This document shows, piece by piece, positions 1,369 through 15,556 of a stretch of DNA of 15,556 nt (the stretch's first letter is position 1; each line of letters opens with the position of its first letter). A program made the position numbers and the translations under genes. The notes beneath the pieces were generated by a model, which was not told the origin of the DNA, searched no databases, and worked only from the letters and a program-made list of their open reading frames with translations. The stretch spans positions 1 to 15,556 of IMG/VR virus record IMGVR_UViG_2541047911_000001; one strand, 5' to 3'. The DNA comes from a virus (lineage: Duplodnaviria > Heunggongvirae > Uroviricota > Caudoviricetes).

Positions 1369-1444
1369 GCCGATATAGCTCAGTTGGTAGAGCAGCGCAT
1401 TCGTAATGCGAAGGTCGTAGGTTCGACTCCTATTATCGGCACCA
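1369..1444 (+). tRNA. thrW: tRNA-Thr, anticodon CGU
   Basis: 76-nt sequence GCCGATATAGCTCAGTTGGTAGAGCAGCGCATTCGTAATGCGAAGGTCGTAGGTTCGACTCCTATTATCGGCACCA folds as a cloverleaf (acceptor GCCGATA/TATCGGC, anticodon loop TTCGTAA, T-loop GGTTCGA, CCA end); lies directly after proA as thrW does in E. coli. Confidence 0.9.
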
Positions 1445-1610
1445 TTCTAACGTCTCGCCAAGTCTACTCAAGTATTTAAAAACCTCTTATAATCCGCATG
1501 TTAGCGCCCCTTTTAGTCTTTTGACGTCTACTTAAGTACCCCAAAATCTACAGTCAATTGGGGGTACTTTTGGGGGTATTTGCTGTTCGGTTTAGTGGAG
1601 GTACCCCCAA
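1428..1610. repeat. attL: tRNA 3' end core plus integrase-upstream region, repeated at 15049-15217
   Basis: TCCTATTATCG (1428-1438) recurs at 15049-15059; the following ~165 bp (1445-1610) is near-identical to 15061-15217 with a few substitutions and one ~12-bp deletion in the second copy. Confidence 0.8.
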
Positions 1611-2825
1611 GTGAAACTCAATGCCCGTCAAATAGACACTGCCAAGCCAAAAGAGAAGGCTTACAAGCTGGCTGATGGTGGTGGTCTGTATCTCTTGGTA
1701 AAACCTAGTGGAGGAAAATATTGGCGCTTCAAGTATCGTGTAGCTGGTAAAGAGAAGCTGTTAGCACTAGGTGTGTATCCTGAAGTTACCTTGGCTGATG
1801 CTCGTGCAAAACGTGAAGAAGCTAAAAGGGGTATCGCTGGGGGTATCGATCCGATGGAAGCGAAACGAGAGGAAAAGATTGCCCGGGAAACGCAGTTAAA
1901 CAACACCTTCAAAGATATTGCCCTTGAGTGGCACAGCAGCAAATTAAAAAAATGGTCTGCTGGTTATGCTTCAGACATCCTCGAAGCCTTCAACAAAGAT
2001 GTGTTCCCTTACATTGGCAAAAAACCAATCGCCGAAATCAAACCACTTGAACTGCTGAATGTGCTGCGGCGCATCGAGGGGCGCGGTGCTACCGAAAAAG
2101 CCAAAAAAGTGAGGCAGCGATGTGGGGAAGTTTTCCGCTATGCAATTGTCACTGGACGTGCTGAGTATAACCCTGCACCGGATCTCACCAGCGCGATGCA
2201 AGGTCATGAATCTAATCATTATCCTTTCCTCACAGCCAAAGAATTACCTGATTTTTTCAAGGCATTGTCCAGTTACTCAGGAAGTGCATTGGTTGTTATG
2301 GCGGCTCGTTTACTGATTATCACCGGTTTGCGGACTGGCGAACTGCGCGGTGCATTATGGGATGAAATCGATCTCAACAAGGCTATCTGGGAGATACCTG
2401 CTTCACGGATGAAAATGCGTCGCCCTCATGTAGTGCCTTTGTCTGAGCAGGCTCTTTCGCTTATTGGGCAGATTAAAGAACTAACTGGCAATTATCCGCT
2501 TATGTTTCCCGGCCGTAATGATCCAAGGAAAACAATGAGCGAGGCTAGCATAAACCAAGTATTTAAACGCATCGGCTATAACGGAAAGGTTACTGGTCAT
2601 GGCTTCCGGCACACTATGAGCACCATTTTGCATGAGCAGGGCTATAACACCGCGTGGATAGAGACACAGCTTGCGCACGTCGATAAAAACTCAATTCGTG
2701 GCACATACAACCATGCGCAATATCTGGATGGGCGGCGGGAAATGCTTCAGTGGTACGCTGATTATATGGATTCGCTCGAGCATGGCGGAAATGTGGTGCA
2801 TGGTGAGTTCGGAAAATGCGGGTGA
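1611..2825 (+). CDS. int: P4-type tyrosine integrase (site-specific recombinase), 404 aa, GTG start
   Basis: Starts 167 bp after the tRNA; GGAGG Shine-Dalgarno at ~1596-1600; N-terminal MKLNARQIDTAKPKEKAYKLADGGGLYLLVKP is typical of P4-family integrases; C-terminal region carries catalytic-type residues (…HGFRHT…, …LAHVD…, …RGTYNHAQY…). Confidence 0.9.
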   Translation: MKLNARQIDTAKPKEKAYKLADGGGLYLLVKPSGGKYWRFKYRVAGKEKLLALGVYPEVTLADARAKREEAKRGIAGGIDPMEAKREEKIARETQLNNTFKDIALEWHSSKLKKWSAGYASDILEAFNKDVFPYIGKKPIAEIKPLELLNVLRRIEGRGATEKAKKVRQRCGEVFRYAIVTGRAEYNPAPDLTSAMQGHESNHYPFLTAKELPDFFKALSSYSGSALVVMAARLLIITGLRTGELRGALWDEIDLNKAIWEIPASRMKMRRPHVVPLSEQALSLIGQIKELTGNYPLMFPGRNDPRKTMSEASINQVFKRIGYNGKVTGHGFRHTMSTILHEQGYNTAWIETQLAHVDKNSIRGTYNHAQYLDGRREMLQWYADYMDSLEHGGNVVHGEFGKCG

Positions 2826-3766: not shown

Positions 3767-3909
3767 ACCCTGAGGGTGATTTACTGTTACCCTGAGGGTA
3801 TTTTTTTATCTTCCCCGTCAATTTTACCATCACCCTTAGGGTAGATTTCCTCCCGATTACCATCACCCTTAGGGTAGATTTCCTTCCGGTAACCATTAGG
3901 CCTGAGGGT
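3767..3909. promoter_or_regulatory. Array of five ACCCT(G/T)AGGGT palindromes, including a perfect 25-bp direct repeat, upstream of the alpA-like gene
   Basis: ACCCTGAGGGT at 3767-3777 and 3789-3799; ACCATCACCCTTAGGGTAGATTTCC at 3826-3850 and 3859-3883 (33-bp periodicity); GCCTGAGGGT at 3899-3909. Confidence 0.55.
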
Positions 3910-6571: not shown

Positions 6572-6929
6572 CCTGTCAATTTCTGACCTTAACAGCATTC
6601 AGTTTGACGAGAAATTTACCGGGCAGTTGCTGGTCAATGTGGAGAACGGGCGCATAGTGCGTAATTACCACCTGCCGGATGGTGCAATTGCCGGAAGCGT
6701 TGAAGCATTGCTGGAACTGGCGGAACGTGCGCGACTGATTAAGCCGTCAACGAGCCATCACGATGATGATCTGCATTTTACCGGGCGTATGGTGAGTCAC
6801 TACGAAAACGGCGTTGAAGTATCCCGCGAACGGCTGCGTGATGATTGCTGTTTCGGCACACTGCCGGAATTTATCGAGTTGCTGACCAGTTGCGGTTATC
6901 AGGTCATTCAGGGGGGTAAACATGCGTGA
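6564..6929 (+). CDS. hypothetical protein, 121 aa (MHNLSISDL…)
   Basis: ATG at 6564 preceded by GGAGG and overlapping the upstream stop (ATGCATAA); preferred over the track's 6546 start, which would place the Shine-Dalgarno inside the coding region. Confidence 0.55.
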   Translation: MHNLSISDLNSIQFDEKFTGQLLVNVENGRIVRNYHLPDGAIAGSVEALLELAERARLIKPSTSHHDDDLHFTGRMVSHYENGVEVSRERLRDDCCFGTLPEFIELLTSCGYQVIQGGKHA

Positions 6930-9445: not shown

Positions 9446-9473
9446 TACGAAATTTATAAGTTGAAACTTAAAA

Positions 9474-9809
9474 GTAGACGGTTGGTAGACAGATACACTT
9501 AACCCTCTACCAACCATCTACTAATTAATGTTTTGAATTATATAGGTATTTTTAATGTGGTAGAGAGGTGGACAGTTTATTTTATATTTCTAAACCACGG
9601 GGGTATCTAAAAATAGATAGTTATGGGTTCATTTTTAAAATTTTTCTTTTAACTATCTACACTGTCTACCATTTAGTAAAAGTCATTAATTATCAATGTA
9701 TTAATACTGTAGAGAGTTGGTAGACAGTTTGCAGATTGTTTTTTTGTTATGTATTAATAACATTAAATAAATCAAACAATTATATCGGTAGACAGTTGGT
9801 AGACAGTTG
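9474..9809. repeat. Origin-like AT-rich region with multiple GGTAGACAGTT-type iterons in both orientations
   Basis: GTAGACGGTTGGTAGACAG 9474-9492 with inverted partner CTCTACCAACCATCTAC 9505-9521; GTGGTAGAGAGGTGGACAGTT 9557-9577; ATCTACACTGTCTACC 9655-9670; CTGTAGAGAGTTGGTAGACAGTT 9707-9729; GGTAGACAGTTGGTAGACAGTTG 9787-9809; A/T-rich spacers, e.g. 9620-9650. Confidence 0.65.
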
Positions 9810-9814
9810 TAACG

Positions 9815-12673: not shown

Positions 12674-14272
12674 ATGAGCGTGGCAATAAAAACAATGACA
12701 CCAATGTCATATTCTATAAAAGTTGATGCGATTAAGAAAAGATTGTCATATTTTAGTGATGTTTCTTTTTTGAGAAATTTTTATGAACACTTCCAAAAAG
12801 TAAGGGATGTCGAGGTGGGTATTGTTTCCAATTTCCCTTGGTGTTGCTATCTGGCAATGAAATGGAAGTTTTGCATGAAGGAAAAAAAGCCTGCAAAAGA
12901 AATGAGTAAAAATGATTTTATTGATATTATCAACTTAATCTATAACTTGCAACTAGAAGCATCTAATTTAATCGTTGATGATAAAGTTATGCTAAGCCTT
13001 AGACGAATGGTGATAAATCAGTTGCTTTATCAATCAACTGATAAATTTAATGCTAATTCATTAACAAGACAGTATATTTGGTATTGCTTGAATGATGAAT
13101 CATATTATAAAGATAAGTTTTTAGAATGTACTGGTTTACATTTGGAAAGCTATTACAAAATGGCATGTTATTTTACTGCTATTTCATGTATTAATCCTGA
13201 TGTAGAATCAGAGGTTATTCCATTTAAACACTTGATAATAAACTTGGTTCCGATATTTGGTCCGGAACAAGTGAAAAAATTTTTGGAATTAACATGCTTA
13301 AAAATTGATGGTGTAAGAGATTTTATTGCCCCATATAAATTGGATAAAAACATTACCGCTGAGTATTATGAAGATACACCATTCCTCAGTAAACCAATGT
13401 TTTTAGATGGCGATGGTGTAGTGATATTATGCAAAAGAATCATGAAGTCAGGGTTTGTCAACCTAGTTCCAGAATTGTTCAAGCAGGTCTATAAGGAATC
13501 TTATAAAGAAAAATTTGGTAAGACGATGGAACTTTATATTTCTCGCTTTCTTGATAAGTACAATTATAACTTTAAGACTGAAAGGGAGGTTAAGAAGATT
13601 TATAGTGATAATGCAATAAAAAATTGCAAGTCCGTAGATTTTGTTATTTCAGAGGGAGATTCAATAGTTTATATTGACTCGAAGGCAATAGAGCCTGCAA
13701 AGTTCGTTAAAACATCTAATAATGCTCAGTTGCTAAAGGAAAGGTTGAATAAGAGTTTTATTAAAGGGATTTATCAAGGTCAGGAATGTGCTTTTAACTT
13801 AAATAAAATAGAGATGAGAAAACCATCTTCGAAAGATTCAATGTTAATTGTGGTGCATCGGGATCATCATATATCAAATGCAATGGTTGTGCAGGATTTT
13901 ATTAACCCTGATTTATCAACTGAGTTATCTGAAAAATATCATAGTACCCCCATTGATCTAAAAAGAATTTACTATATAACAATTGATGAGTTCGAATTAT
14001 TACTTATGATGTGTAAACAGAAAGAACTATCTATTAATGAGTTTATTGATATGTGTGTGGAAAAAGATTCATTCCCTCATACTCAGAAGTCTAATCTAAG
14101 CATGCACATATATGAATTTGCACCAGAGGGTATTGATGATGATCAATTGATTGTAAAAGGAAGAGACTTACTGATTGATGATGTTATTGAAAATATGAAA
14201 GAGAGTGCATCAAAATGGTCTGGGAAAGTTGATATGTATCTTAAAATAAAAGATTATATTTTTAATTGGTAA
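12674..14272 (+). CDS. AT-rich orphan protein of unknown function, 532 aa; candidate anti-phage defence / abortive-infection effector with a possible PD-(D/E)xK-like core
   Basis: Long uninterrupted ORF with a composition very different from the rest of the island; AAAAGG Shine-Dalgarno 8 nt before the ATG; AT-rich promoter-like leader; perfect hairpin downstream; last gene before attR. Confidence 0.8.
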   Translation: MSVAIKTMTPMSYSIKVDAIKKRLSYFSDVSFLRNFYEHFQKVRDVEVGIVSNFPWCCYLAMKWKFCMKEKKPAKEMSKNDFIDIINLIYNLQLEASNLIVDDKVMLSLRRMVINQLLYQSTDKFNANSLTRQYIWYCLNDESYYKDKFLECTGLHLESYYKMACYFTAISCINPDVESEVIPFKHLIINLVPIFGPEQVKKFLELTCLKIDGVRDFIAPYKLDKNITAEYYEDTPFLSKPMFLDGDGVVILCKRIMKSGFVNLVPELFKQVYKESYKEKFGKTMELYISRFLDKYNYNFKTEREVKKIYSDNAIKNCKSVDFVISEGDSIVYIDSKAIEPAKFVKTSNNAQLLKERLNKSFIKGIYQGQECAFNLNKIEMRKPSSKDSMLIVVHRDHHISNAMVVQDFINPDLSTELSEKYHSTPIDLKRIYYITIDEFELLLMMCKQKELSINEFIDMCVEKDSFPHTQKSNLSMHIYEFAPEGIDDDQLIVKGRDLLIDDVIENMKESASKWSGKVDMYLKIKDYIFNW

Positions 14273-14304: not shown

Positions 14305-15048
14305 TCATAGTCTTACAATATTAAATGTTGTGTTTTTTATTTATATATTTTATTGCCCGTCAAGCTATTAATTCATCTCGTTGTTTGAGATAGGTTGAGC
14401 ATTTGTATTTTTTTATCAATTTTATCTGTATGAGCTTAAGCAGCTTCAATAATATCTGCGTTAAATTACGCTTCATTCAGAGACGTGCTTGCTATTGACA
14501 TGTAATCCATGTGCAACAAGATTCCTGCCATAACTTATGCGTTTCAGAGCCGAATCATGGACTGCTTTAAGTCATTTTTGTAGGGAAAACATGTTCACAT
14601 GTCAGCACTGATTTGTTTCATCACATATCCACTATCTCGAATTCCTGTGTCGATAGATGAATGCAGACGGAAATATGTAAATTTTGTGCACGCTCTGCTA
14701 TTAAGCGAAAACGAGCGTGGGTATATCAACTAATAATTGCCCTCATTAACATAGGTGGTGGCGGGTATAATCTCTGTAACCCAGTTGTTCGTGACTACCC
14801 ACCTCGTCAAATTTTCACACCCGCGAAATAAAAAATACTTCACGCTAGTGGTTATCCTTGGGCATCCACCAGCCCTTCATCATTGCCTGCCGGTGAGGCT
14901 GAGGCTCGAAGAAAAAGAGTGCTAGATAGTCGATTTTTGCCTGGTTTGGGATAAGGGAAAATTTATTGGGGGTACTTTTGGGGGTATCTATAAAAATGAA
15001 ATATGAAAATATCATTAAATATCAATGTATTTGTTGTTTATGTTTTGT

Positions 15049-15217
15049 TCCTATTATCGCCCATTCTAACGTCTCCCCAAGTCTACTCAAGTATTTAAAA
15101 ACCTCTTATAATCAGTATATTAATGCCCCTTTTAGTCTTTTGACGTCTATTTAAGTACCCCAAACTCTACAAGCAATTGAGGGGATTTGCTGTTCAGTTT
15201 AGTGGAGATACCCCCAA
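15049..15217. repeat. attR of the first island / left junction of a second tandem island
   Basis: TCCTATTATCG at 15049-15059 followed by a near-identical copy of the sequence found after thrW at 1445-1610. Confidence 0.8.
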
Positions 15218-15556
15218 GTGAAACTCAATGCCCGTCAAATAGACACTGCCAAGCCAAAAGAGAAGGCTTACAAGTTGGCTGATGGTGGTGGTCTGTACCT
15301 CCTGGTAAAACCTGGTGGAGGAGAATATTGGCGTCTCAAGTATCGTGTAGCTGGTAAAGAGAAGCTGTTAGCACTAGGTGTGTATCCTGAGGTCACCTTA
15401 GCTGATGCTCCTGCAAAACTTGAAGAAGCTAAAAGAGGTATCTCTGGGGGAATCGATCTGATGGAAGTGAAGCGAGAGGAAAAGATTGCCCGGGAAACGC
15501 AGTTAAACAACACCTTCAAAGATATTGCCCTTGAGTGGCACAGTAACAAATTATAA
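15218..15556 (+). CDS. int: Second P4-type integrase, N-terminal 112 codons only; in-frame TAA at the window edge
   Basis: GTG start in the same context as the first integrase; protein closely similar to the first integrase N-terminus with scattered substitutions; TAA at 15554-15556 where the first copy has AAA. Confidence 0.7.
   Translation: MKLNARQIDTAKPKEKAYKLADGGGLYLLVKPGGGEYWRLKYRVAGKEKLLALGVYPEVTLADAPAKLEEAKRGISGGIDLMEVKREEKIARETQLNNTFKDIALEWHSNKL

What the first reader, a model, noticed from the sequence alone, without database searches (positions are those of the whole stretch)
1560..1579. Exact 20-bp G-rich repeat on both flanks of the att core: candidate integrase arm-type site
GGGGGTACTTTTGGGGGTAT occurs at 1560-1579 (between attL and the int start) and again at 14968-14987 (about 60 bp before attR). 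In the excised circle the two copies would sit on either side of the attP core in direct orientation, which is the geometry of arm-type binding sites for tyrosine integrases. In the second tandem element the corresponding left-arm copy has collapsed to GAGGGGATTTGCTG (about 15178-15192).
Basis: partly seen in the sequence, partly recalled or inferred. Interest (0 to 1): 0.45.

Follow-up and report, generated by a model that had tools for sequence, protein, structure and literature searches.

The report
Integrase arm-type sites flanking att core
The exact 20-base repeat on both sides of this thrW-inserted island is the island's version of the "arm" repeats long annotated in satellite phage P4, very probably the accessory docking sites of its integrase: real and functional-looking, but an ordinary feature of a known kind.

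Summary
GGGGGTACTTTTGGGGGTAT occurs exactly at 1560-1579 and 14968-14987, with none expected by chance. Each copy is two tandem 12-bp units (TTGGGGGTAY..). A fifth, inverted unit (1599-1610) abuts the integrase start codon.

The window is proA, then thrW, then a 13.6-kb PICI-like island, then a decayed second copy. The island's integrase carries an N-terminal arm DNA-binding domain.

The layout matches two annotated or studied systems:
- **Phage P4:** its record annotates "attP arm sequence repeats" (GGGGGCAY) in the same layout. Two units lie 53 bp before the core, two lie 112 bp after it, and one inverted unit sits at the int start.
- **KplE1/HK620:** the layout also matches the IntS arm-type sites, which were characterised experimentally.

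Comparative evidence:
- In 63 of 79 related loci the left-arm layout sits at the same distance from the int start.
- The repeat word changes between lineages (GGGGGTA, GGGGGCA, GTGTATAG), and it changes together on both arms.
- The word tracks the integrase N-terminal domain rather than the catalytic domains.
- Of 57 thrW attR-type sites chosen only by their core, 52 carry such a pair 56-65 bp upstream.

This is a new member of a known kind. No binding experiment exists for this element.

The parts
1369..1444 (+). tRNA-Thr (CGT), thrW; integration target
   Evidence: ARAGORN. The proA-thrW context matches annotated E. coli genomes.
1428..1446 (+). attL core, TCCTATTATCGGCACCATT (3' end of thrW plus 2 nt)
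   Evidence: Found by comparing attL, the attR of EC23-1020 and the empty site in BL21(DE3).
1558..1569 (+). P' arm unit 1, TTGGGGGTACTT (first half of the reported 20-mer)
   Evidence: Homologous position to the P4 unit TTGGGGGCATAA. Conserved at about -52 from the int start in 63 of 79 relatives.
1570..1581 (+). P' arm unit 2, TTGGGGGTATTT (second half of the reported 20-mer)
1599..1610 (-). P' arm inverted unit (reads TTGGGGGTACCT on the minus strand). It abuts the int GTG and overlaps the spacer between ribosome-binding site and start codon.
   Evidence: pair I24. An inverted copy with at most 1 mismatch lies next to the start codon in 60 of 63 standard loci. P4 has the same arrangement.
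1611..2825 (+). Tyrosine integrase (404 aa). Residues 3-88 form the arm DNA-binding domain.
   Evidence: Pfam PF13356, PF22022 and PF00589. PDB 3JU0 and 3JTZ match residues 2-99. 43% identical to P4 Int and 49% to IntS of HK620/Sf6.
1829..1850 (+). Possible extra pair inside int (aGGGGTATCgctGGGGGTATCga, 12-bp period, encoding RGIAGGI). Status uncertain.
   Evidence: Present only in the closest thrW clade and broken by synonymous changes in L005, L013 and L015. The P4 and HK620 records each annotate one intragenic arm-type repeat.
14966..14977 (+). P arm unit 1, TTGGGGGTACTT
14978..14989 (+). P arm unit 2, TTGGGGGTATCT
   Evidence: The pair ends 59-61 bp before the core, as in 49 of the 52 core-selected thrW sites that carry a pair.
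15020..15032 (+). IHF-like site (TATCAATGTATTT, one mismatch to WATCAANNNNTTR) between the P arm pair and the core
   Evidence: A match at -28 to -30 from CCTATTATC occurs in 19 of 34 thrW right arms. This is a consensus match only.
15049..15065 (+). attR core (tcctattatcgcccatt, degenerate), which doubles as the left junction of the second, decayed element
15177..15188 (+). Collapsed single arm unit of the second element (TTGAGGGGATTT; one 12-bp unit deleted)
   Evidence: The same 12-bp-deleted allele goes with a truncated int in 30 of 30 sampled E. coli genomes.

Best explanation
The two 20-mers are pairs of 12-bp arm-type sites for the island's own integrase. One pair lies on the P arm, which is next to attR when the island is integrated. 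The other lies on the P' arm, between attL and int.

Together with the inverted unit at the int start they form the five-unit arm set of a P4-type attP:
- two P units;
- about 60 bp of AT-rich spacer containing an IHF-like site;
- the 19-bp core in the 3' end of thrW;
- 111 bp of P' arm;
- two P' units;
- 17 bp to the next unit;
- one inverted P' unit;
- the int start codon.

The proposed mechanism is inferred from the lambda, P4 and KplE1 paradigms. The N-terminal arm-binding domain of each Int protomer holds an arm unit while its core-binding and catalytic domains hold a core half-site. Bends made by IHF and by the excisionase allow this bridging, so the arms decide whether and in which direction recombination occurs.

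The P' units lie about 10-50 bp upstream of int and overlap the position where relatives have the int promoter -10 element. Int bound there probably also represses its own gene, as reported for P4 Int and KplE1 IntS.

Shown here: sequence, geometry, homology, conservation and co-variation. Inferred: binding, bridging and autoregulation.
For: **Protein.** Int has the Arm-DNA-bind_3 domain. Residues 2-99 match the solved arm-type binding domains 3JU0 (E 1.4e-26) and 3JTZ/3RMP.

**Homology of layout to P4.**
- The P4 genome record annotates 12-bp 'attP arm sequence repeat' units.
- Two tandem units (GTGGGGGCACAA, AAGGGGGCATAT) lie 53 bp before the core.
- Two tandem units (TTGGGGGCATAA, TTGGGGGCATCT) lie 112 bp after the core.
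- One inverted unit (TTGGGGGCACAT) lies at the int start.
- The window has 59-61 bp and 111 bp at the corresponding places, and an inverted unit at the start. The word differs by one base.
- P4 Int is 43% identical to the window's Int.

**Homology of layout to HK620/KplE1 (Int 49% identical).**
- A GGGTAAAAT pair with 12-bp period ends 57 bp before the core.
- A second pair starts 115 bp after the core.
- Inverted copies abut the ATG.
- In KplE1 these P' sites are treated as the previously characterised IntS arm-type sites. P'1 overlaps the -10 box, and IntS represses its own promoter (PMC2951348).

**Left-arm conservation.**
- 63 of 79 loci with Int 61-99% identical have the 12-bp-period pair at -48 to -57 from the int start.
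- 60 of those 63 have an inverted copy next to the start.
- The distance from tRNA end to int start is 163-167 bp at about two thirds of the loci with a detected tRNA, across several tRNA targets.

**Co-variation.**
- The word switches between GGGGGTA, GGGGGCA, GTGTATAG, TTGTATAG and GGGGGCC, and it switches in all units of an element at once.
- Right-arm and left-arm words agree in 11 of 11 informative elements.
- The word class needs 6 changes on a tree of the N-terminal domain but 17 on a tree of the core-binding and catalytic domains.
- Int residues 29, 50 and 53 split perfectly: L/L/(L,I,V) in 40 GGGGGTA loci against (E,Q)/R/F in 21 GGGGGCA loci.
- P4 was not in that sample. It has GGGGGCA units and the residues E, R and F.

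**Unbiased right-arm test.** Of 57 distinct sites chosen only by the attR-type thrW core, 52 have a 12-bp-period pair ending 56-65 nt upstream. About 31 are GGGGGTA, about 4 GGGGGCA and about 17 GTGTATAG. The other 5 are chance hits in coding DNA.

**Decay.** In a spread sample of 60 of 975 E. coli genomes, the intact pair goes with full-length int (28 of 29 rows with an intact pair) and the 12-bp-deleted pair with truncated int (30 of 30).
Against: - No binding, footprint or recombination data exist for this element. The assignment rests on homology and co-variation.
- The link between the word and the N-terminal domain is confounded by physical linkage. The P' units lie directly upstream of the N-domain codons, and in the attP form the P arm is also close by.
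- Each word class looks close to monophyletic on the N-domain tree (6 changes for 6 classes). The residue-to-base correlation therefore rests on few independent events.
- The link between the 12-bp deletion and truncated int is one old lineage, not many independent losses.
- A consensus scan finds no sigma-70 promoter on the int strand in the window's left arm. The window has CCAAAA-N18-TACTTT where relatives have TTGAAA-N18-TACATT or CATAAT. Autoregulation is therefore the weakest step for this particular element.
- The original papers describing P4 Int binding were not available in the library. I relied on the GenBank feature annotation and on secondary citations.
Confidence: 0.88

Rival explanations
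1. The repeats are binding sites for the island's excisionase (recombination directionality factor, an AlpA/Vis-type protein), not for the integrase.
For: Excisionase sites are typically direct repeats spaced about one helix turn apart (abstract of PMC7498355, seen). The island encodes an AlpA-family protein (annotation of the near-identical island). The left pair lies in the region where excisionase sites occur in KplE1.
Against: - The pairs lie on both arms at fixed distances from the core. In KplE1 all five TorI sites are on attL and have a different word (GTTCG), distinct from the IntS sites.
- The homologous units are annotated as attP arm repeats in P4.
- A separate repeated word in the left arm fits excisionase sites better. 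It is GTCTAC/ATCTAC at 1461, 1526 and 1547, and GTCAAC in other elements. It varies independently of the arm word: L017 has GGGGGCA arms but GTCTAC words.
Confidence: 0.04
2. The 23-bp exact repeat is a recombination scar or a second, inner att site, that is, the true crossover sequence of a nested element. On this reading it is not a protein-docking site in its own right.
For: It is an exact 23-bp direct repeat that brackets an integrase-carrying segment. That is formally the geometry of attL and attR.
Against: - The empty site in BL21(DE3) and the single-copy island in EC23-1020 place the junctions at the thrW 3' end. The DNA between core and repeat on both sides belongs to the island.
- In relatives the two pairs differ in flanks and spacers yet keep the same geometry.
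- An inverted third copy at the int start has no place in this model.
- P4 and HK620 phage genomes show the pairs on either side of the core in a true attP.
Confidence: 0.02
3. The units are operators used only for transcription control, with no role in recombination. The left set would control int and the right set a rightward or cargo promoter. The regulator could be Int or some other protein.
For: - In 32 of 63 relatives the best sigma-70 match has its -10 hexamer formed by the 3' part of unit 1.
- P4 Int and KplE1 IntS repress their own promoters.
Against: - The right pair has no gene or promoter-like site downstream before the core.
- Its distance to the core is fixed at 56-65 bp across elements with unrelated cargo. 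That constraint points to recombination geometry.
- In KplE1 the minimal attR substrate for in vitro excision starts just before the homologous pair (primers in PMC3509656, compared).
Confidence: 0.05

Closest known systems
Satellite phage P4 'attP arm sequence repeats' (annotated in NC_001609; described by Pierson and Kahn 1987, cited in PMC7286903)
   Same: - The unit is 12 bp with a G5 run.
- Two tandem units lie 53 bp (P4) or 59-61 bp (window) before the core.
- Two tandem units lie 112 bp (P4) or 111 bp (window) after the core.
- One inverted unit lies at the int start.
- The core is the 3' end of a tRNA gene.
- Int has the same three-domain architecture and is 43% identical.
- An extra unit lies inside int.
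   Different: - The word is GGGGGTAY here and GGGGGCAY in P4.
- Int residues 29, 50 and 53 are L/L/L here and E/R/F in P4.
- The target is thrW, not leuX.
- The element looks like a PICI (AlpA, D5/DUF5906 primase-helicase, ProQ, PerC) rather than P4.
- The intragenic copy is a pair at +219 from the int start here, and a single unit at about +295 in P4.
KplE1 (CPS-53) / HK620 / Sf6 IntS recombination module
   Same: - The P and P' geometry is the same (57 bp and 115 bp).
- The period is 12 bp, and inverted copies abut the start codon.
- attL overlaps the int promoter.
- In this system the arm-type sites were characterised experimentally, and repression by IntS was shown.
- Int is 49% identical.
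   Different: - The word is GGGTAAAAT.
- There are two inverted copies instead of one.
- The target is argW.
- The excisionase is TorI, with GTTCG sites.
- These elements are P22-like phages or their remnants.
Phage lambda arm-type sites P1, P2, P'1, P'2, P'3
   Same: The logic is the same: a heterobivalent integrase, five arm units split two and three around the core, and IHF sites between arms and core (established knowledge; introduction of PMC2951348).
   Different: The N-terminal domain family is unrelated: lambda Int matches only through residues 138-332. The word, spacing and orientation pattern differ. The lambda int promoter does not overlap attL.

Membership tests
Arm-type sites of heterobivalent tyrosine integrases (general) | The integrase carries a separate N-terminal arm-binding domain in addition to the core-binding and catalytic domains. 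| tested here: met
   PF13356 (E 3.6e-29), PF22022 and PF00589. PDB 3JU0 and 3JTZ match residues 2-99.
Arm-type sites of heterobivalent tyrosine integrases (general) | Repeated sites lie on both arms of attP, away from the core and different in sequence from it. | tested here: met
   Units lie at 14966-14989 (59-61 bp before the core) and at 1558-1581 and 1599-1610 (111 bp or more after it). The core TCCTATTATCGGCACCATT is unrelated in sequence.
Arm-type sites of heterobivalent tyrosine integrases (general) | The sites are bound by the Int N-terminal domain and are needed for recombination. | not testable with these tools
   The only support is indirect. The word co-varies with the N-terminal domain, and homologous sites in KplE1 were characterised experimentally.
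P4-type attP (P4-like / DUF4102 integrases) | Two tandem 12-bp units lie on the P arm about 50-60 bp from the core. | tested here: met
   59-61 bp in the window, 53 bp in P4. The distance is 56-65 bp in 52 core-selected thrW sites.
P4-type attP (P4-like / DUF4102 integrases) | Two tandem 12-bp units lie on the P' arm about 112 bp from the core, plus an inverted unit at the int start codon. | tested here: met
   111 bp in the window, 112 bp in P4. The inverted unit at 1599-1610 abuts the GTG at 1611. The same holds in 60 of 63 standard relatives.
P4-type attP (P4-like / DUF4102 integrases) | The integrase is homologous to P4 Int, and the island is inserted in the 3' end of a tRNA gene. | tested here: met
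   43% identity, E 4e-117. The tRNA is thrW, with an empty-site comparison.
P4-type attP (P4-like / DUF4102 integrases) | The unit word is GGGGGCAY. | tested here: not met
   The window has GGGGGTAY, one base different. This is a sister specificity class, not the P4 word itself.
KplE1/HK620 IntS module | The int promoter overlaps the P' arm sites, giving negative autoregulation by Int. | tested here: inconclusive
   In 32 of 63 relatives the best promoter match places the -10 hexamer in unit 1. The window itself has only a degenerate match, and the consensus scan finds none on the int strand.

The most novel reading that the evidence does not exclude
The arm units and the integrase N-terminal domain may form an exchangeable specificity module with a simple read-out. 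On this reading, GGGGGTA versus GGGGGCA is decided by residues 29, 50 and 53 (L/L/L versus E or Q/R/F), with further classes such as GTGTATAG. The module is shuffled relative to the core-binding and catalytic domains, which choose the tRNA target.

Because at least three arm classes share the same thrW core, these classes could act as incompatibility groups. Different islands could then sit in tandem at one tRNA gene without excising each other. Tandem arrays of mixed class are seen in L130 and L177.
Probability: 0.35. Interest if true: 0.5.

Novelty: new member of a known kind. Interest (0 to 1): 0.3.

Why it matters
For this element the result is routine annotation. It fixes the functional attP at about 420 bp (14966-15065 joined to 1447-1613). 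It also tells anyone building integration vectors, or predicting the mobility of thrW islands, which DNA must be kept.

The family-wide pattern is more useful. The 12-bp-period pair at a fixed distance from a tRNA 3' fragment is a sharp marker for the right ends of P4-type islands and satellites. The loss of one unit marks the dead remnant carried by many sampled strains, including Nissle 1917, CFT073 and 536.

The match between arm word and three N-domain residues gives a directly testable hypothesis for how DUF4102 arm-binding domains read DNA.

Tried and rejected
- **Chance or low complexity:** rejected by the shuffles.
- **Inner att site or scar:** rejected by the empty-site and single-copy comparisons.
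- **Inverted near-copy at 1536-1545 (TTTGGGGTAC):** not conserved in relatives, which have the -35-like TTGAAATC there, so it is not counted as a unit.
- **Copy at 13944-13953 and single GGGGGTA words at 6912, 9599 and 12428:** no extended match or pairing, so treated as chance.
- **Exact-repeat search for attR in the 79 genome loci:** found only five, because most islands are longer than the 10-kb flank and attR cores carry 1-nt changes. It was replaced by word-pair and core-only searches.
- **First IMG/VR scan:** it selected on the 20-mer, so the conservation value of 0.96 from it is partly circular. The core-only scan is the unbiased test.
- **Apparent discordant case L206:** the integrase there belongs to a tRNA-Gly site.
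- **Single-sequence AlphaFold model of the N-terminal domain:** poor (pLDDT 55). Only its strand positions were noted, and no fold search was run.
- **Literature:** Szwagierczak 2009 could not be read. Pierson and Kahn 1987 and Piazzolla 2006 were seen only as citations.
- **Consensus promoter scans:** gave no int-strand promoter in the window.

Full report
**1. The observation**

GGGGGTACTTTTGGGGGTAT occurs without mismatch at 1560-1579 and 14968-14987, both on the + strand. There is no other match with up to three mismatches, and no match in 200 shuffles. The identity extends to 23 nt (family D18).

Each copy is two tandem 12-bp units. On the left they are TTGGGGGTACTT and TTGGGGGTATTT (1558-1581). 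On the right they are TTGGGGGTACTT and TTGGGGGTATCT (14966-14989). A further unit in inverted orientation lies at 1599-1610, directly before the integrase start codon at 1611 (pair I24). GGGGGTA occurs 11 times against 0.94 expected.

**2. Context**

- The window runs proA (1-1254), then tRNA-Thr(CGT) thrW (1369-1444), then a 13.6-kb island, then the start of a second, decayed copy.
- The island encodes a tyrosine integrase (1611-2825) with Arm-DNA-bind_3, Phage_int_M and Phage_integrase domains.
- It also encodes an AntA-like protein, DUF4222, a D5/DUF5906 primase-helicase and ProQ.
- In the near-identical island of E. coli EC23-1020, AlpA and PerC are annotated as well.
- It looks like a PICI-like satellite with a low-GC cargo gene at the right end.
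- BL21(DE3) has the empty site, and EC23-1020 has a single copy with a clean right junction.
- These comparisons define the core as TCCTATTATCGGCACCATT (attL 1428-1446; attR 15049-15065, degenerate).
- The DNA between the core and the repeats on both sides therefore belongs to the island.
- In the excised circle the order is: P pair, 59-61 bp, core, 111 bp, P' pair, 17 bp, inverted unit, int.

**3. Comparison with characterised systems**

*Phage P4.* The P4 genome record annotates 12-bp 'attP arm sequence repeat' units.
- GTGGGGGCACAA and AAGGGGGCATAT lie in tandem 53 bp before the core.
- TTGGGGGCATAA and TTGGGGGCATCT lie in tandem 112 bp after the core.
- TTGGGGGCACAT lies inverted at the int start.
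- One more unit lies inside int.
- The window has the same layout with one base changed in the word. Its Int is 43% identical to P4 Int.

*HK620/KplE1.* The IntS of HK620/Sf6 is 49% identical. The HK620 attP again shows the same layout, with the word GGGTAAAAT.
- A pair with 12-bp period ends 57 bp before the core.
- A second pair starts 115 bp after the core.
- Inverted copies abut the ATG.

In KplE1 these P' sites are treated as the previously characterised IntS arm-type sites. P'1 overlaps the -10 box, and IntS and the excisionase TorI repress the int promoter. TorI has its own, different sites (PMC2951348). The minimal attR used for in vitro excision begins just before the P pair (PMC3509656). 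P4 Int is also reported to repress its own promoter (PMC7286903). Residues 2-99 of the window's Int match the solved arm-type binding domains of the HAI7 and HPI integrases (3JU0, 3JTZ).

**4. Relatives**

A scan of one genome per species returned 79 loci with Int 61-99% identical. They sit at tRNA-Thr, Arg, Gly, SeC, Ser and Phe genes.

- The distance from tRNA end to int start is 163-167 bp at about two thirds of the loci with a detected tRNA.
- In 63 of 79 loci a 12-bp-period pair lies at -48 to -57 from the int start. In 60 of those an inverted copy lies next to the start.
- The word is not fixed. It is GGGGGTA in 40 loci, GGGGGCA in 22 and GTGTATAG or TTGTATAG in 9. There are single cases of GGGGGCC and GGGGGCT.
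- All units of one element carry the same word.
- Where the right end was within reach, a same-orientation pair of the same word lies 54-61 bp before attR.

**5. Unbiased right-arm test**

A first IMG/VR scan used the 20-mer as bait, so it cannot measure conservation of the 20-mer.

I therefore scanned with only the attR-type thrW core, TTCCTATTATCGCACCA.
- Of 57 distinct sites, 52 have a 12-bp-period pair ending 56-65 nt before the core, mostly 59-61 nt.
- About 31 are GGGGGTA, about 4 GGGGGCA and about 17 GTGTATAG.
- The five sites without a pair are chance hits in coding DNA.
- Where the integrase of the same element was held, the right and left words agree in 11 of 11 informative cases. 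The one apparent exception has an integrase that belongs to a tRNA-Gly site.
- Between the pair and the core the sequence is variable, apart from an IHF-like match 28-30 nt before CCTATTATC in 19 of 34 thrW right arms.

**6. Who reads the word?**

- On neighbour-joining trees the word class needs 6 changes on the N-terminal domain and 17 on the core-binding plus catalytic domains. For example, L031 (GGGGGTA) and L079 (GTGTATAG) share the C-terminal part.
- Three Int positions separate the two main classes without exception. Residue 29 is L against E or Q. Residue 50 is L against R. Residue 53 is L, I or V against F. This holds for 40 against 21 sequences.
- P4, which was outside the sample, has GGGGGCA units and the residues E, R and F.
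- A low-confidence single-sequence model puts these residues in predicted beta strands 25-30 and 49-59.

Two caveats apply. The P' units are physically next to the N-domain codons, so linkage contributes to the association. Each class is close to monophyletic on the N-domain tree, so independent events are few.

**7. Decay**

In the second element of the window one 12-bp unit is deleted and the other is mutated (15177-15188). Its int is truncated (15218-15556).

In a spread sample of 60 of 975 E. coli genomes, the full-length arm goes with full-length int in 28 of the 29 rows that have an intact pair. The 12-bp-deleted arm goes with a truncated 'Arm DNA-binding domain' fragment in 30 of 30 rows, including Nissle 1917, CFT073, 536 and ATCC 25922. 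This is one old lineage. It fits the loss of a no-longer-needed site but does not add independent support.

**8. Promoter**

In 32 of 63 standard loci the best sigma-70 match is TTGAAA-N18-(T/C)A(C/T)A(T/A)T, with the -10 hexamer formed by the 3' part of unit 1. KplE1 has the same arrangement. The window has only CCAAAA-N18-TACTTT at that place, and the consensus scan finds no int-strand promoter. Autoregulation is thus plausible for the family and uncertain for this element.

**9. Verdict**

The 20-mers are the P and P' arm-type site pairs of a P4-type attP, and they differ from P4's own annotated arm repeats by one base. This is a new member of a known kind. The only potentially new point is the family-wide link between arm word and three N-domain residues, together with the coexistence of several arm classes on one tRNA core. 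No binding experiment exists for this element.

Noticed in passing
window 1461-1466, 1526-1531, 1547-1552: A second repeated word lies in the left arm: GTCTAC, GTCTAC, ATCTAC. In other thrW elements all three copies read GTCAAC/ATCAAC, and in L020 the last two read GTCCAC/ATCCAC. The word varies independently of the arm word: L017 has GGGGGCA arms but GTCTAC words. These are candidate excisionase (AlpA-type) sites, by analogy with the TorI sites in KplE1.
   Followed up: partly
window 1583-1593: The block CTGTTCGGTTT, between arm unit 2 and the inverted unit, is nearly invariant across thrW elements of both arm classes. Elements at Arg tRNAs have GGTTCAATGAAA at this place. Its function is unknown. 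It could be part of the int 5' UTR or another protein site.
   Followed up: no
window 1829-1850: A third 12-bp-period pair, aGGGGTATCgctGGGGGTATCga, lies inside int, where it encodes the unusual RGIAGGI instead of the family's usual KLLAAG. It occurs only in the closest thrW clade, and synonymous changes break it in L005, L013 and L015. The P4 and HK620 records each annotate an intragenic arm-type repeat.
   Followed up: partly
window 9470-9810: A cluster of iteron-like repeats (GTAGACAGTTGGTAGACAG, direct and inverted) lies in a low-GC gap just after the primase-helicase gene (families D3 and D5, pair I15). This is probably the island's replication origin.
   Followed up: no
window 12674-14272: A 532-aa ORF in a stretch of 31% GC lies at the right end of the island. 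It has no Pfam hit above threshold and no PADLOC hit. It sits where satellites usually carry anti-phage cargo.
   Followed up: partly
window 3824-3889: A 33-bp tandem duplication (94% identical copies) lies in the intergenic region upstream of the AlpA-like gene (family D9).
   Followed up: no
window 15049-15556; also L130 and L177: Tandem arrays occur at one tRNA. The window has an intact island followed by the decayed remnant that many sampled E. coli genomes carry alone. In L177 and L130 a GGGGGTA-class right arm is followed directly by a GGGGGCA-class left arm and int, so islands of different arm class sit side by side.
   Followed up: partly
attR cores in L001 and in the IMG/VR loci: Most thrW attR cores read TCCTATTATCGCACCA, with one G, where the tRNA has GG. 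This suggests that attP carries the single-G form and that strand exchange occurs 3' of that position, in CACCATT.
   Followed up: no
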